From NCBI GenBank assembly GCA_951406725.2, contig OX597819.1:91760001-91824000 (forward strand): a DNA stretch of 64,000 nt. The letters are read 5' to 3'. The DNA comes from Octopus vulgaris. Its lineage: Eukaryota. Positions 6,233 through 36,120 of this stretch are shown in pieces; position 1 is the first letter of the stretch; each line of letters starts with the position of its first letter. Under the pieces are notes generated by a model that saw nothing but the letters and a program-made list of their open reading frames with translations, was not told the origin of the DNA and ran no database searches. The position numbers and the translations under genes were made by a program.

Positions 6233-6772
6233 TGTTTTCAAGTTTCACGTCAGTGACGACTGCATTACCAGATGCACATGTGGGCTCTCGAGATGCACGA
6301 GTGTTTGTATATATAAATATATGTGCGTGTGCATGTATATGTGTGTGTGTCTGCATGCATGTGTGTGTGTGTGCGTTTGTGTACGTCTGTGTGTTCACGT
6401 GCGCATGTATTTATAATTATGCTTTGGCAGGGTAAAAAGAAAGAATTTCTTCTTTTCTTTTGCGTTGTTGTAAAGTTTGTTTCATTGTTACATACGTTTC
6501 TTTTGAGTACTGCATCTGTTTATTTTATCGGGGCACGATATGTGTAACGCGAGTTCTCTTGTTCGCCGGTGTTTGTGGTTCGTATGTGCTGCCTAAGCTA
6601 TCTTTCGTATTTTAACGTCTGGTGGTGATTCTGTGAGATTGTGTGTGGGTTGTGTTATAATATATATATATATCACCCTCAACACTTCTAACATATATAT
6701 ATATATATATATCGCTATGCGCTCCGTGAGAGCAGTCATCTAAAAGTTTTTGTGAATCTTGATGTTGACATA

Positions 6773-6876
6773 AATTCCTTGTTTTTCCTGATGAGAAAGC
6801 GGCATAATGTACTCCTTATTCCTTCACAATTAGGAATATGCAGCCTTCGAAACATATGTCGAAAATAAAGGAAATT
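6773..6876 (+). ncRNA. Type I hammerhead ribozyme, canonical core
   Basis: Stem I aattccttgtttttc/gaaaataaaggaaatt; CTGATGA 6788-6794; stem II gaaagcggcata/tatgcagccttc (10 of 12 pairs) with inner attcct/aggaat hairpin; GAAA 6849-6852; stem III is the palindrome ACATATGT; GUC triplet, predicted cut after C6860. Confidence 0.85.
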
Positions 6877-7073
6877 TGTTAATTTGTCATTCTTTCATTT
6901 ATTCATAAATTTTATAAAAATACGCACAAATTTCCACACGAAAACACGTAGTCTCTGCCCTAGGCACGTAACTTCAACCGTATTATTTCTGATGTGAATT
7001 TGCTACCCAGGTATCGGTTAAACGAATTATCCATAAAAAGATATTTCATTTTTCTACTCAAATATATATATAT

Positions 7074-7392
7074 ATCACCATCATCATTGTTCGACCGTGG
7101 TCGAGACAATGGAATTTACTATGTTACGCCAGACTTCACGGTCCATCATAGCATTACGGAGGTCCTGTTGCTGGATGCCTGTATCCTTGAAGATTACATT
7201 AAGGTAGGAGAGTGTGCGCCCTCTGGTATCGCGAGCAGATGGCTTCCAGAGGGGAAGAGTAGAAATTACCTCGTTTTCAGCTCTACAACAATGCCCACCA
7301 AACTGAACTCTTCTACCTTTCACAAGAGATGATACAGGTGGTAGTTTCCCATATATTTGTACTTTGGTTGGATGCCGTTTCCACGAGAGATA
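7074..7392 (-). mobile_element. RTE-clade LINE 3' end (5'-truncated)
   Basis: SWKRHPTKVQIYGKLPPVSSLVKGRRVQFGGHCCRAENEVISTLPLWKP...RGRTLSY...DREVWRNIV...EQ* ('RR..GH..R ... DR..W' RTE C-terminus), followed by a short TGA-repeat tail. Confidence 0.85.
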
Positions 7393-7560
7393 TATGTTTG
7401 TGTGAGTGTGTACGTATGTAGAGGTTATGAACGCAGGAGGTTTATGTCTATGTATTGTGAGAATATGGTTGCGAGTATTTTTTAAATCTTTTTTCTTTTT
7501 TTTCTACCTATTAGAGTAACTTCTCTTTTATTCGACGTTAATTTTTATAGCGTCTGTCGC

Positions 7561-8193: not shown

Positions 8194-9528
8194 TGACAGA
8201 AATAAATAGATACCCTTATAATCATTAAGATTTATTTAAATCTGAAATTATACATTCAAATTATTTATTAATTATTATAATGTGAATATCTAATATTTAG
8301 TAGACATGCCCTTTGCATTTTTCAATGTAAGGATCCTATAAGGTATGCTACTGATCAGATGACGAATATTCTCTTGGGAATTTCTTGCCAGGTTTCATGA
8401 TCATCCTCATCACCATTTTCTTTCGCCGCCATCATCATCATTATCAACAAAGATCTGGCTTTTACGAAGTGTCCTGTCCATTATGCTCCAGAGGTGACTG
8501 GCTTGGCCATGGAAGTTAAGGCCATTCTTTTCCAACCAATCTTGGGTCCTTTTAGCGTGTGACAAGGAGCCTCATCTTCCATAAATAAAGTCTTCTGGAG
8601 AAGACTGGAAAGAGCCCTTTCTGCAATACGGGCACATATTTATCTGAGTTTATGTTTTCATCACACTTCACAAGCTCTGATTGATCATTGCTCCAAATTG
8701 CTCCCCAGACCATCACAGAATAGCTGCAGAGTTTCATTGTTGGTTGCAATCTTTTCATGTCAAATTCTTGATCACAGAGTCTTCAGACCCACACTCGACC
8801 ACTGTAAAAAAGTACAGCAAATCAGGACTTATCAGAGAATATGATAGCAGCTATTGGAAGGAATCTTTTCTGAATATGATAGTGTCCCGAAATGCTAGCA
8901 GCCATTGGAAGGAATCTTTTCTGCAATATGGACACATATTTATCTGAGTTTATGTTTCCATCACAATCCACTAGCTTTGACCATTGCTCCAAATTGCTCC
9001 CCAGACCATCAATATTTCTCCACTTGATATTGGCTGGTTGAAGAAGTGGCTTCCTTCTTGCTGCTCTGCCAGAGAAGCCAAGTTTGTGGAGATACCTGTC
9101 AGCTGTTCTGGGATTGACATCAACTTGTTCTGCTATGTCAGAGACCTTGCAATGAGGATAATCCTCCACACTTCTCTTAACAAAGTAAAGGGTTTTGTCA
9201 GAGGGCGCTGGTCGACCTGAGTAAGATGCCGTGGACTCCTTCCTCTCTCTGGTGAATTGCACAATCACTCTATTAACTGTAGAAAGCGGGATCCTAAGGT
9301 TTTCTACGATTTTACGCTGACTATGATCACTTTTATAATGACCCAGAATACGGCCTCCTTAAAATTCAGACAGTTCCAGGGCTTCTTTTGTATATAGCAT
9401 GATTGAACAATCACATATAGAACCTGAAACATAAAAATGTCCATTAATAAAAAATGTAAACCTTTTCAGGTTAAAATAAATATAAACAATGTTTTATCGG
9501 GCGTCTATTTACTTCTGTCATGTCTATG
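8190..9528 (-). mobile_element. Degenerate Tc1-family transposon with TIRs and disrupted transposase
   Basis: TIRs (atgacagaaataaatagataccc / gggcgtctatttacttctgtcat). Minus-strand remnants run from ATG 9400 (ELSEF*GGRILGHY...IPLSTVNRVI...SGRP...AARRKPLL) through SVMVWGAIW..NINSDKYV..EDEAPCH to AKGMSTKY* at 8290; stops, frameshifts and an internal duplication are present. Confidence 0.9.
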
Positions 9529-15214: not shown

Positions 15215-15800
15215 GTGGCACAGGACCGACAGATTTTGGTGGGAGGGTGAATTCGATTACATCAAACCCAGTACTTGATAGGTGTTTATTCTGTCGACCC
15301 CGAAAGGATGAAAGGCAAAATCGACCTCGGCGGAATTTGAGTTCAGGACGTAAAGACGGACGAAATGCCTATTTCTTAACTACCCACAAAGGGCTAAACA
15401 CAGAGCGGACAAACAAGGACAGACAAACGGATTAAGTCGATTATATCGACCCCAGTGCGTAACTGCTACTTATTTAATCGACTCCGAAAGGCAAAAATCG
15501 ACCTCGGCGGAATTTGAGTTCAGGACGTAAAGACGGACGAAATGCCGTTAAGCATTTTGTCCGTCGAGTTACCGTTTCTGCCTGCTCGTTATCGTTCCAA
15601 CAATAATAATAATATTGGCTTAAAATTTTGGCGCAAGGGGGTGGGGTAAGACGATTACATCGATCGCCAGTACTTAACTGGTACTTATTTTAACGATCTT
15701 GAAAGGATGAAAGGCTAATTCGGCGGAATTTGAGCTCAGACGGACGACATGCTGCTAAGCATTTTGTCCGGCGAGATAACGGTTCTGCAAGTTTGCCATA
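15215..15800 (-). mobile_element. Cluster of nested/tandem SINE family B copies
   Basis: Repeated cgaaaggatgaaaggcaaa.tcgacctcggcggaatttga segments. Confidence 0.75.
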
Positions 15801-16350
15801 TTTCCAACAGTACTAATAACGTTGTTGCTGTAGTTGTTGTATAGTTTCAAATAAAGTGTTTGTCTAGACGGTATACGTAATATTGATTTCTTACACTGTA
15901 AAGCTTTGCCTTATCTTAGATCTAAAAAGAAAATGTTCTGTGATGATATAAAATTATGCAGTTTTTTCCCCCTAAAGACATAAGCAAAATTGTATGCAAT
16001 CTCAACTGGAAATTGAAATGAAGTCGTAATTCGCCCAAAATTTATCGCTGCACCATGGCACCAAAGAGCAGAAGAATTGGCAAGTGAAGTGAATGCATTT
16101 AATATTAGATTATGCTATAAGAGTTACACTAACAACTCCTATAATTTCAATTTTGATGAAATTTCCAGGTTTGCTAATCTTAAGTAAATAAACACTCGAG
16201 AAAATTTCGACTCTGCTTCTGCTCTGTTCAATTCTAAAGTCTTATCCTAGTTTTTGCTTTTAGCAAGTTACAGACCAAAACTTCGATACTAATAAATTTC
16301 CATTCCTTGTCTGTGTGTATTTTCACGTTTTCTTCCTATTTCTTTTACAG

Positions 16351-17708
16351 AGCCGGTTGGTGTTTTCCGTCTGTGGAACTACCATTTTATAACAGTTACT
16401 CTCGCTGCTGCTGCTGCCGCTGTTGTGGCTGTTGTTGCTGTCGTTGCTGCTAGTATTGCTGCTGTTGTTGCTGCTGTCTCTGCCGTCTCCACGTCTCTCC
16501 CTGTAGGACTCCACCTTACTTCGAACTTAGTGTCTTCAACCTTATCATCATAAAAAAAAAACAACTTTTATTTCTTTATCACCGTTCTTTACTAACACTG
16601 CTTCACACATTCACCCACCCCTACCCTATCTTCCAAAAGGGAGTAAAAAGTTCTATTAGCAGTTGGCTGACGATTTCTTCTGCTTAAGCATTCTCTGCTA
16701 CCACCACCGCCGCCAGCACCCTCAATCGACAGCAATACCAGCACTTGCACTACACCCTGCCTTCAGCCACCACCGCCACTACCGCCACCATCGCTTGCAG
16801 TACACTCTACCCTCGCCACCGCCATCCTTATCGGCACTACCAAACACCCACAACTACCAACACCGCAGTCAGCACTAACACGCCGTTACCCTCCAACACC
16901 ACCCCACTCTAGAGTGCTGAACCGAGGTTTCTGTTACCTGTAGAGAAGCAAAAAGCCCAGAGTAGGTAGCATAGCAGATAGTGAGAAAGCACAGCAGCCA
17001 CAGAAAATCCATTCCTGCTACCCAACATCAAGATGGAATGACGTTACTTTGCGTGGAAGGTAGTCAACACTGCCACCCCCTAGAATATTTCTTCTTCTTC
17101 TTGAACAAGATCTCTTTCAAGCCGCCGACGCCATACTCTTACCACCATTAGCCGGCCTCAGCTGATAAATTTTTTTTTTAATATCAATTTTTTCGCGATC
17201 CCCACCCCAAAAATCTAGTAACAAAAGTAAAGAAAAACAACCCAAAAACAGAAATAACAAATACCAAAAACGGAAAAAAAGGCGACTGTGAACAACAAAA
17301 TAGCCCCCTAAATATATATATAGCACACTTTGTTATTCGATTACCTAAGTTTCTCCAATTTGTTCCATTTGGGGGGGTGCATTGAAAAAAAAATAACAAG
17401 ACAGAAGAAACTTCCTAGAAAATTTTAATATGTAATTAATTAGCAAATAATTAATCAATAAATTTCTTGCAATTTAACATGACTAATTAGTTGCATTTAC
17501 AATAATACTAACAATAAATATTTGCAAAGGAAACAGGCGAATTGAGTTTAGATTAAAACCATATTTTGTTCCCAAGGAAGCAATTATAGTTTTGATAACT
17601 TGACAGCGCCGAGAGGAAAAGAGGGATTTATCAGAACAGTTCAATCTATTCGAAGATAGAGAATCCAAGTACTCTTTGGCTACTAGATTTTTGGAACTTG
17701 ACAGGATC
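16351..17708 (+). other. Probable long 5'UTR portion of the PDZ-gene exon
   Basis: Strong acceptor tttcacgttttcttcctatttcttttacag| ending at 16350; no recognisable TE up to the ATG; only 4 ATGs in 1358 nt (17033, 17038, 17430, 17479), all closed by early stops. Alternative acceptor ttgacag| at 17606. Confidence 0.45.
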
Positions 17709-17807
17709 ATGATCAGTACTGGGATTTTAACCGTCACCCTTGACGGCGGAGCACCATGGGGCTTCAGGCTACAAGGAGGTGGTCCCAACCCATTGCAAGT
17801 TCTCAAG
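17709..17807 (+). CDS. First coding exon of a PDZ-domain protein (synaptopodin-2/SYNPO2L/PDLIM-Zasp-like N-terminal PDZ)
   Basis: MISTGILTVTLDGGAPWGFRLQGGGPNPLQVLK then AAG|gtacgt donor (phase 0). GGAPWGFRLQGG is the carboxylate-binding loop of this PDZ group; the 'PLQV.K|' exon end matches my recollection of SYNPO2/SYNPO2L exon 1. Too short for the ORF track. Confidence 0.9.
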
Positions 17808-17834
17808 GTACGTTGATATTTCGCTATTGTTTCG

Positions 17835-35296: not shown

Positions 35297-35345
<49 letters not shown>

Positions 35346-35372
35346 AATGTAATATGTGACAATTATTCGGTA

Positions 35373-35437
35373 GCCATGATAAAACTCCGAGTTTCGGATA
35401 AAACTCCTCGCCGCTATCTCTTCAGTTATCCGGCCAT
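35373..35437 (-). ncRNA. Type I hammerhead-like motif (minus arm)
   Basis: gataa-CTGAAGA-gata...tatc-c-GAA-ACTC-G-GAGT-T-ttatc. Confidence 0.7.
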
Positions 35438-35464
35438 CAAAAAAAAAAAAATGCTATTTTCGAT

Positions 35465-35535
35465 GGCCGGATAACTGAAGAGATGGCAACGTGTGTTTCC
35501 GCCCTGACATCCGAAACTCGGAGTTTTATCATGGC
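35465..35535 (+). ncRNA. Type I hammerhead-like motif (plus arm)
   Basis: gataa-CTGAAGA(35475-35481)-gatg...catc-c-GAA(35513)-ACTC-G-GAGT-T-ttatc; GUU triplet, predicted cut after 35525. Confidence 0.7.
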
Positions 35536-35632
35536 TACTGAATAATTGTCACATATTATATTTACACATAAATTCATCTATTTACATAATATCGAGGTCT
35601 CTTTCATTCTTTTGTTGTCTTAGCATTTCTAT

Positions 35633-36081: not shown

Positions 36082-36120
36082 CCCTTTCTGATGAAGAGCC
36101 GTGCTCGAAACAGCATATAG
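36082..36120 (+). ncRNA. Minimal hammerhead-like motif, 3' side decayed
   Basis: cttt-CTGATGA-a-gagc-cgt-gctc-GAAA-cagcat; downstream sequence resembles the 47518/56886/63560 family. Confidence 0.55.

What the first reader, a model, noticed from the sequence alone, without database searches (positions are those of the whole stretch)
6712..7061. Fully canonical hammerhead (CUGAUGA/GAAA/GUC) with extended stems in a 350-nt TA-flanked segment
Seen: all conserved core nucleotides are intact, stem I can extend to about 13 bp, stem II pairs at 10 of 12 positions and carries an inner hairpin, and stem III is the palindrome ACAUAUGU. It is the best candidate in the window for an active ribozyme. It is on the + strand, the same as the downstream PDZ gene, so if that gene has an upstream exon (suggested by the acceptor at 16350) it could cut the pre-mRNA (inference).
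Basis: partly seen in the sequence, partly recalled or inferred. Interest (0 to 1): 0.75.

Follow-up and report, generated by a model that had tools for sequence, protein, structure and literature searches.

The report
Hammerhead in Penelope-like retrotransposon stub
The self-cutting RNA motif is really there, but it is one of more than 2,500 similar copies left in this genome by a Penelope-like jumping gene; it is predicted to cut only when paired with a second copy, and it likely serves the jumping gene rather than the nearby host gene.

Summary
The hammerhead is real: intact core (6788-6860), stem II 10/12, palindromic stem III; 2 of 3000 shuffles match. It is not special to this locus. The 350 nt are a dispersed repeat with 2,526 exact-core copies, control 0. 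Longer copies run upstream into a reverse transcriptase plus C-terminal GIY-YIG ORF: a Hydra-like Penelope-like element (PLE) inserting in (TA)n. Changes shared between lineages avoid the core (1/20 vs 72/139 sites); single-copy changes do not (p=0.6). Selection thus acted on the element, not on inserted copies. The monomer fold is 0.3% of the ensemble, and no partner lies within 264 kb. Additions: 29 of 70 young arms start 142-153 nt upstream of the cut, ending at an initiator-like CTCA|TT, and none ends at the cut. This copy starts at -148/-150, so it is likely a near-complete copy of an uncut leader RNA. The family lacks Hydra's zinc-finger linker yet targets TA (67/70). The scan reported PLE hammerheads in this genome before, on other DNA. 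Host pre-mRNA cutting is unsupported.

The parts
6712..7061 (+). Solo pseudo-LTR (3' end) of a Hydra-like Penelope-like retrotransposon; the 5' end may reach 6710 because the flanking TA also fits the element
   Evidence: 40 of 40 scored genomic matches 93-100% identical, self included; shared sharp 3' end and variable 5' ends; longer copies continue into an RT + GIY-YIG ORF
6710..6712 (+). 5' end of the copy, 3-5 nt inside the inferred transcription start (A of CTCA|TT at -153 from C17); the upstream TATA-like and CRE-like motifs of longer copies are missing here
   Evidence: 29 of 70 arms start at -142..-153, none at -154..-159; motifs; the start site itself is inferred
6772..6787 (+). Stem I, 5' arm (with 2x2 internal loop)
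   Evidence: double-sided changes 6783-6865 UA>CG in 18 arms and 6778-6870 CG>UA in 9 of 104
6788..6794 (+). Catalytic core C3-A9, CUGAUGA
6795..6848 (+). Extended stem II (10/12 pairs) with distal loop and inner hairpin 6817-6838
   Evidence: 6799-6844 GC>AU in 26 arms; pair 4 is A-C here and G-C in 34 arms
6849..6860 (+). GAA, palindromic stem III ACAUAUGU (predicted dimer helix) and C17; predicted cut 6860/6861
   Evidence: palindrome duplex -7.0 kcal/mol; monomer pairs P 0.01-0.03; no shared variant in the 6 inner palindrome sites
6861..6877 (+). Stem I, 3' arm
6887..6888 (+). Site of a 10-nt deletion private to this copy
   Evidence: the 10 nt are present in all 29 other top copies shown in that block
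6922..6922 (+). Short 3' end used by other copies (first inferred RT start site)
   Evidence: many arms end at query position 211 followed by TA
6923..7061 (+). Optional 'tail' of about 140 nt, ending at the long 3' end (second inferred RT start); in full copies it leads into the ORF
6693..6711 (.). (TA)n target, left flank
7062..7075 (.). (TA)n target, right flank
   Evidence: 67 of 70 family arms have (TA)4 at a 3' end zone vs 12.6% background

Best explanation
This segment is a recently inserted, ORF-less end piece (solo pseudo-LTR) of a Hydra-like Penelope-like retrotransposon, and its type I hammerhead is predicted to cut only as a dimer, likely for the element's own replication and not for the host gene. 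Shown: repeat status, link to an RT + GIY-YIG ORF, TA targeting, two alternative 3' ends, and lineage-level selection on the core. Inferred mechanism: (1) Transcription starts about 153 nt upstream of C17, at an initiator-like CTCA|TT below TATA-like and CRE-like motifs. (2) The element protein nicks a (TA)n run and starts reverse transcription internally at one of two sites, about +60/72 or +200/210. (3) When it does so on the uncut leader of such an RNA, it runs off the 5' end and leaves a 215-360-nt stub like this one. (4) The ribozyme is kept because two copies in one transcript (5' and 3' pseudo-LTR) can pair through ACAUAUGU, probably helped by the element protein, and release a unit that can be circularised. 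Copying past one unit length would regenerate the upstream promoter that linear leader copies lose. Steps 1-3 are inferred from copy ends (about 65%). Step 4 is the published hypothesis and is untested here (about 35%). At this locus the lone copy is most likely inert.
For: Repeat: 3,584 first-look candidates, 40 scored, 93-100% identical; 1248+1278 exact-core matches, reversed control 0. ORF link: 29 of the 30 loci picked by the endonuclease peptide carry the segment downstream (L031-L060, all but L048). There is an 833-aa open frame with DKT, YRDD, YIG, CxxC-E and CxH. Pfam GIY-YIG E=0.0013 and RVT_1 E=0.0072, both below curated cut-offs; Atlas nearest clusters at 0.93-0.96 are eukaryotic, four of six rows carrying RVT_1 or HTH_animal. 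PLE anatomy: head-to-head inverted truncated arms and two 3' ends, as in PMC8557442. Selection: variants shared by 4 or more loci at 1/20 core and palindrome sites vs 72/139 flank and loop sites, p=5e-5; private changes 31/2054 vs 193/14021, p=0.61; three double-sided stem changes. Template ends: 29/70 arms (25 of 60 regions) start at -142..-153, binomial p about 1e-18 against a flat distribution; 0 of 70 end at the cut. Among 30 loci picked downstream of the cut, none starts at +1 (nearest +4 and -9), and 9 start at -142..-153, several next to plain TA or non-element DNA. GACGTC and CTCATTA motifs persist across subfamilies while the spacer varies. A Poseidon PLE in vitro uses two internal RT starts that define the tail and an unprocessed template, and its hammerhead is protein-assisted (PMC11167929, parts 1-2 read). 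Metazoan PLE hammerheads are inactive as monomers and weak as dimers (PMC4209133, parts 1-2 read).
Against: No cleavage or start site was measured. The 5'-end pile-up is weak in the divergent subfamily (3 of 25 arms at -147..-153), and under a steep exponential background (scale 40 nt) a best 12-nt window of 29 arose in 0.6% of simulations. Many pile-up arms sit at inverted junctions, where microhomology or fold-back could set the end (PMC3846280 passage). An A6G core variant has 10 copies vs 464 wild type and 1 A9G, which suggests the core is not strictly needed in cis and weakens step 4. Nearest-neighbour folding ignores tertiary contacts, and I could not score the dimer topology. Domain matches are sub-threshold.
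Confidence: 0.88

Rival explanations
1. The copy lies in an intron or 5' leader of the downstream PDZ-domain gene and cuts its pre-mRNA, tuning expression.
For: Same strand as the coding start at 17709. A pyrimidine-rich AG ends at 16350. The core is intact and stems I and II each pair with probability 0.3-0.5.
Against: The monomer three-way fold is 0.3% of the ensemble. There is no compatible partner in 264 kb. The intact core is expected for a subfamily with about 1% private divergence, and inserted copies lose core bases at the neutral rate. The tested Poseidon hammerhead needed element protein (PMC11167929).
Confidence: 0.05
2. The segment is a non-autonomous unit in its own right (retrozyme or SINE-like): stubs are transcribed from an internal promoter and amplify as about 360-nt RNAs using the PLE protein.
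For: Many copies have the same unit length and 5' end. D. virilis Penelope has an internal promoter (PMC2377424 passages). The tail of older copies holds TGACGTGA, close to the RGACGTGY element named there.
Against: Copies are dispersed, and no head-to-tail arrays of the stub were seen in the loci examined. The same sequence runs without a break into the ORF, and subfamily markers are shared by stubs and ORF-bearing copies. Stubs lack the upstream conserved motifs, and TGACGTGA is TGATGTGA in this subfamily.
Confidence: 0.1
3. The 5'-end pile-up at -142..-153 comes from an RT pause or fold-back self-priming at the local GCUC/GAGC hairpin, not from the RNA's 5' end; all templates could then be long or circular.
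For: Many pile-up arms are at palindromic junctions. Self-priming has been proposed for such junctions (PMC3846280 passage).
Against: The limit is sharp at the initiator-like A, with no ends at -154..-159. Both arms of several insertions stop at the same place (L146, L148, L189, L194). Arms without an inverted partner also stop there (and this copy).
Confidence: 0.25

Closest known systems
Hydra clade of C-terminal-endonuclease Penelope-like elements (Craig et al. 2021, PMC8557442; abstract, passages, section 11, supplement part 2 and search hits in files S1, S2 and the figures read)
   Same: Single ORF with RT and C-terminal GIY-YIG; DKT motif; no CCHH; CxxC and CxH around the conserved E and N; sense-strand hammerhead near the 3' end; (TA)n insertion; inverted 5'-truncated copy. 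By eye the protein follows the Hydra rows of the supplementary alignment.
   Different: No CxCX5C linker (replaced by about 148 aa that are half Asn/Ser); RWL in place of RWK; unit 3.56 kb rather than under 3 kb; tail about 140 nt rather than 30-40; stem II insert 54 nt, longer than in the listed Hydra hammerheads. The published Hydra-1_Obim has a different hammerhead and a different protein sequence (compared by eye).
Palindromic-helix-III type I hammerheads of metazoan PLEs (Cervera and de la Pena 2014, PMC4209133, parts 1-2 of 4; review PMC6765202, passages; Lunse et al. 2017 not held, known only from that review)
   Same: Type I, long helix II, G10.1-C11.1, short palindromic helix III, mostly single motifs from truncated PLEs, predicted dimer.
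   Different: Longer stem I (14 bp with loops), an extra hairpin in stem II, and no extra nucleotide between A9 and G10.1.
PAc (Poseidon PLE of Anolis; Frangieh et al. 2024, PMC11167929, parts 1-2 of 4)
   Same: Two alternative 3' ends bounding a tail, AT-rich target, hammerhead upstream of the RT starts, copies spanning the cut site intact.
   Different: In PAc the ORF starts inside the hammerhead and the two sites are adjacent. Here the ORF starts about 270 nt after the cut and the sites are about 140 nt apart.
Metazoan non-LTR retrozymes (PMC7229834; search listing and start of abstract only; tandem layout recalled)
   Same: Short repeat with a type I hammerhead.
   Different: This sequence is dispersed and continuous with a protein-coding PLE.

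Membership tests
Type I hammerhead ribozyme | Conserved core C3 U4 G5 A6 N7 G8 A9, G12 A13 A14, A15.1-U16.1, H17 | tested here: met
Type I hammerhead ribozyme | Helices I and II flank the core and covary | tested here: met
   three double-sided changes between subfamilies; also subfamily-wide breaks at 6779-6869 (26 arms), 6775-6873 (25) and 6799-6844 (7)
Type I hammerhead ribozyme | Stable helix III in the monomer | tested here: inconclusive
   2 bp, P 0.01-0.03 as a monomer; 8-bp duplex possible in a dimer, as in PLE-type hammerheads
Type I hammerhead ribozyme | Self-cleavage at C17 | not testable with these tools
   needs an in vitro assay
Rfam hammerhead models | Score at the gathering threshold | tested here: not met
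   no hit; not filed under an Rfam family
Penelope-like elements, C-terminal EN+ | Single ORF with RT followed by GIY-YIG | tested here: met
   833-aa frame with YRDD and YIG; Pfam hits weak, below cut-offs; Atlas
Penelope-like elements, C-terminal EN+ | Pseudo-LTR tandem, inverted 5'-truncated copy, optional tail | tested here: met
   L062 has the segment on both sides of the ORF, 3,560 nt apart; inverted arms and two ends
Penelope-like elements, C-terminal EN+ | Hammerhead within the pseudo-LTR | tested here: met
Hydra clade | DKT in place of DKG | tested here: met
   QSDKT in L061 and L062
Hydra clade | N-terminal RWK motif | tested here: inconclusive
   IRWLAF at the matching place
Hydra clade | No CCHH; CxxC and CxH around E and N in the endonuclease | tested here: met
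   CGVCNSE...N...CMH; absence of CCHH judged by eye
Hydra clade | CxCX5C linker before the endonuclease | tested here: not met
   0 of 20 aligned rows (14 distinct copies); so filed as Hydra-like, not as a member
Hydra clade | (TA)n insertion | tested here: met
   67 of 70 vs 12.6% background
Hydra clade | Placement in the RT phylogeny | not tested
   no tree built; reference proteins were seen only in the supplement text

The most novel reading that the evidence does not exclude
The genome records two template pools for one Penelope-like family. Uncut, start-site-initiated leader RNA gives the abundant promoter-less stubs with a hard 5' limit at -153. Only dimer-cut, circularised or tandem RNA could regenerate the upstream promoter, which would explain why the ribozyme is conserved although copies never begin or end at its cut. 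The same family targets (TA)n without the zinc-finger linker proposed to direct that targeting.
Probability: 0.3. Interest if true: 0.55.

Novelty: new member of a known kind. Interest (0 to 1): 0.25.

Why it matters
As a host regulatory ribozyme it is not supported: it is one of thousands of transposon stubs. The family is still useful. The role of hammerheads in endonuclease-bearing PLEs is stated to be unclear (PMC8557442), and this young, high-copy family gives sharp genomic landmarks (inferred start at -153, cut at 0, ends at about +70 and +210) and a natural A6G core variant with which circular versus linear templates can be tested. It is also a counter-example to the proposal that the zinc-finger linker directs TA targeting. 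I found no description of this family or of a start-site pile-up in the paper searches, but Repbase, Dfam, subscription papers and most of the 59-part supplement of PMC8557442 were not seen.

Tried and rejected
Rfam: no hammerhead hit. Run search with the putative PDZ exon: no RNA holder listed. Laying four guessed-RNA contig sets on 15600-17830 gave no cover of the exon, so the upstream exon and intron status stay open. Laying four contig sets on 6420-7420 showed family-like contigs in organisms coded A-D but no joint across the insertion, so polymorphism is untested. A-to-I editing imprint on copies was rejected: A>G 18/5050 vs T>C 33/5506, no excess. 'Copies begin or end at the cut' (lead from e1-8663719) was rejected for this family. 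The active dimer could not be scored, because ViennaRNA cannot evaluate that topology; its cofold minimum is a different dimer. Full-length Pfam and PDB searches gave nothing meaningful. Naiad identity was rejected: the endonuclease is C-terminal and a canonical hammerhead is present. A twin-hairpin check (lead e1-8804728) on the 2 copies that run into the ORF predicted a hairpin just before the long end, enclosed by an 11-12-bp helix whose 3' arm lies beyond that end. The two copies folded differently near the short end, and the tail fold of the window copy is not better than shuffles (z -0.48), so this is inconclusive. The intron-cleavage literature search gave listings only, not read. Rows dropped before counts: arms not spanning the ribozyme and duplicate loci (150 nhmmer hits, 105 arms, 104 after de-duplication; a few same-place duplicates may remain). 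The shared-variant threshold in the code is 4 loci although its header says 3. That sample is not random: it was picked by similarity, by the endonuclease peptide and by a stem II pattern, which fixes part of the distal region in one subfamily. One search used 60 regions chosen from the first 100 listed of 464 matches, skipping places already held.

Full report
Observation. The hammerhead is at the stated place: CUGAUGA 6788-6794, stem II 6795-6848 (10 of 12 pairs), GAAA 6849-6852, palindrome ACAUAUGU 6852-6859 and C17 at 6860. Stem I totals about 14 bp but is interrupted by a 2x2 loop and a bulge. Only 2 of 3000 shuffles pass a core-plus-stems descriptor. Rfam does not score it. As a monomer the three-way fold lies 2.8 kcal/mol above the minimum and is 0.3% of the ensemble, with stem III at P 0.01-0.03. 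The palindrome can form an 8-bp intermolecular duplex of -7.0 kcal/mol. These figures omit tertiary contacts.

What it is. The window lies in a 2.8-Gb, microsatellite-rich animal genome (octopus-like by inference). The 350 nt are a dispersed repeat: all 40 scored candidates of 3,584 were 93-100% identical, and a core pattern has 2,526 exact matches with control 0. Copies share a sharp 3' end followed by (TA)n, have variable 5' ends, and often carry a head-to-head inverted arm. Longer copies run upstream into a GIY-YIG C-terminus. A search with that peptide returned 150 scored matches; 29 of the 30 fetched loci carry the segment downstream. Of 8 longer regions fetched, L061 has an 833-aa open frame and L062 has the segment on both sides of its ORF, 3,560 nt apart. 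The protein has DKT, YRDD, YIG, CxxC-E and CxH, with weak Pfam RVT_1 and GIY-YIG hits and RT-like Atlas neighbours. This matches the Hydra clade described in PMC8557442 (section 11 and supplement passages) except for the CxCX5C linker, which is absent in 14 of 14 distinct copies and replaced by an Asn/Ser-rich stretch. Asn-rich inserts are known in rotifer PLEs (PMC3846280 passages). I therefore call it Hydra-like. The published Hydra-1_Obim is a different family.

Selection is on the element. In 104 arms from several subfamilies, variants shared by four or more loci occur at 1 of 20 core and palindrome sites against 72 of 139 flank and loop sites (p=5e-5). Private changes occur at the same rate in both classes (31/2054 vs 193/14021, p=0.61). 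Three stem pairs change on both sides between subfamilies, and three show subfamily-wide breaks. Replicating lineages thus kept the ribozyme, while inserted copies decay neutrally. The window copy is young: a 10-nt deletion and 2 substitutions separate it from its subfamily majority, none in the ribozyme. Its stem II is weaker than in other subfamilies (A-C where 34 arms have G-C). The one shared core variant, A6G, has 10 copies against 464 wild type and 1 A9G. All 10 carry the markers of the middle subfamily, which hints that a core mutant was copied.

Copy ends. 3' ends fall at about +52..+87 or +191..+213 from C17 in all 70 arms, never at the cut; 67 of 70 are next to (TA)4 against 12.6% background. 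Among 30 loci picked downstream of the cut, none starts at +1. Instead, 29 of 70 arms (25 of 60 regions) start at -142..-153 and none at -154..-159. Position -153 is the A of CTCA|TT, 26-28 nt below TATAAAG and about 40 nt below TGACGTCA. The first and last motifs persist across subfamilies; TATAAA is present in 16 of 18 young and middle arms and 0 of 5 divergent arms. The labels initiator, TATA and CRE are recalled consensus names. The pile-up is 9 of 30 in the second sample and only 3 of 25 in the divergent subfamily. The window copy starts at -148/-150 and has the long end.

Mechanism. Shown: the anatomy above. From the literature: a Poseidon PLE starts reverse transcription internally at two sites that define the tail, uses unprocessed RNA, and has a protein-assisted hammerhead (PMC11167929). 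PLE hammerheads in animals are inactive as monomers and weak as dimers (PMC4209133; PMC6765202). Penelope's start site lies in the upstream pseudo-LTR (PMC2377424). Inferred: priming on the uncut leader of a start-site-initiated RNA runs off at -153 and leaves stubs such as this one, which lack the upstream promoter motifs. The ribozyme is likely retained because paired cutting of the 5' and 3' copies could yield a circle, and more-than-unit copying would restore the promoter. That last step is the published hypothesis and is untested here.

Host gene. A PDZ-like coding start lies at 17709 on the same strand and an acceptor-like AG at 16350. Whether the transcript spans 6860 could not be determined. 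Even if it does, the monomer is predicted to be poorly folded, and no same-family or palindrome-compatible partner exists in 264 kb around it. I put host regulation at about 5%.

Verdict. A real hammerhead, a new member of a known kind (PLE pseudo-LTR ribozyme), ordinary at this locus. Earlier scan notes reported PLE hammerheads elsewhere in this genome; the sequence look-up found none for this family. The start-site pile-up, the linker-less TA targeting and the A6G copies are modest additions. Interest 0.25.

Noticed in passing
window 35343-35625: A second, unrelated insertion between TA runs carries two head-to-head type I hammerheads (core 35475-35525 on +, 35425-35383 on -) with stem III ACUC-G-GAGU, like listed Hydra hammerheads; inverted arms are 80 nt, 89% complementary.
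   Followed up: partly
window 6660-6677 and 7062-7079: ATATATATATATATCACC occurs on both sides of the insertion, with a 15-nt spacer plus TA before the element; possibly a target duplication with filler.
   Followed up: no
window 7076-7400, minus strand: 3' end of another very abundant repeat with a (TGA)n tail and a LINE-like peptide end (RTE-like by recall); the PLE stub sits in the TA run at its tail.
   Followed up: no
window 36088-36117: CUGAUGAAGAGC...GCUCGAAAC motif, a hammerhead-like core with stem II, apparently in another repeat; stem I was not checked.
   Followed up: no
L099-L108: A6G core variant in 10 copies vs 464 wild type and 1 A9G; all 10 carry middle-subfamily markers.
   Followed up: partly
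L061:2741-5239 (-), L062:3403-5814 (+): ORF with a 132-167-aa Asn/Ser-rich linker lacking CxCX5C, yet the family targets (TA)n.
   Followed up: partly
L062:3300-3420; L061 minus strand near 5480-5380: GTATCGGTTAA in the tail is complementary to TTAACCGATA(C) just before the start codon, enclosing the long 3' end; this helix exists only where the tail runs into the ORF leader.
   Followed up: partly
window 16351-17807: Putative long first coding exon: about 1,360 nt of leader, then MISTGILTVTLDGGAPWGFRLQGGG and a GT donor; PDZ-LIM-like by recall.
   Followed up: partly
window 8822-9358, minus strand: Frame resembling a Tc1/mariner transposase fragment (by recall).
   Followed up: no
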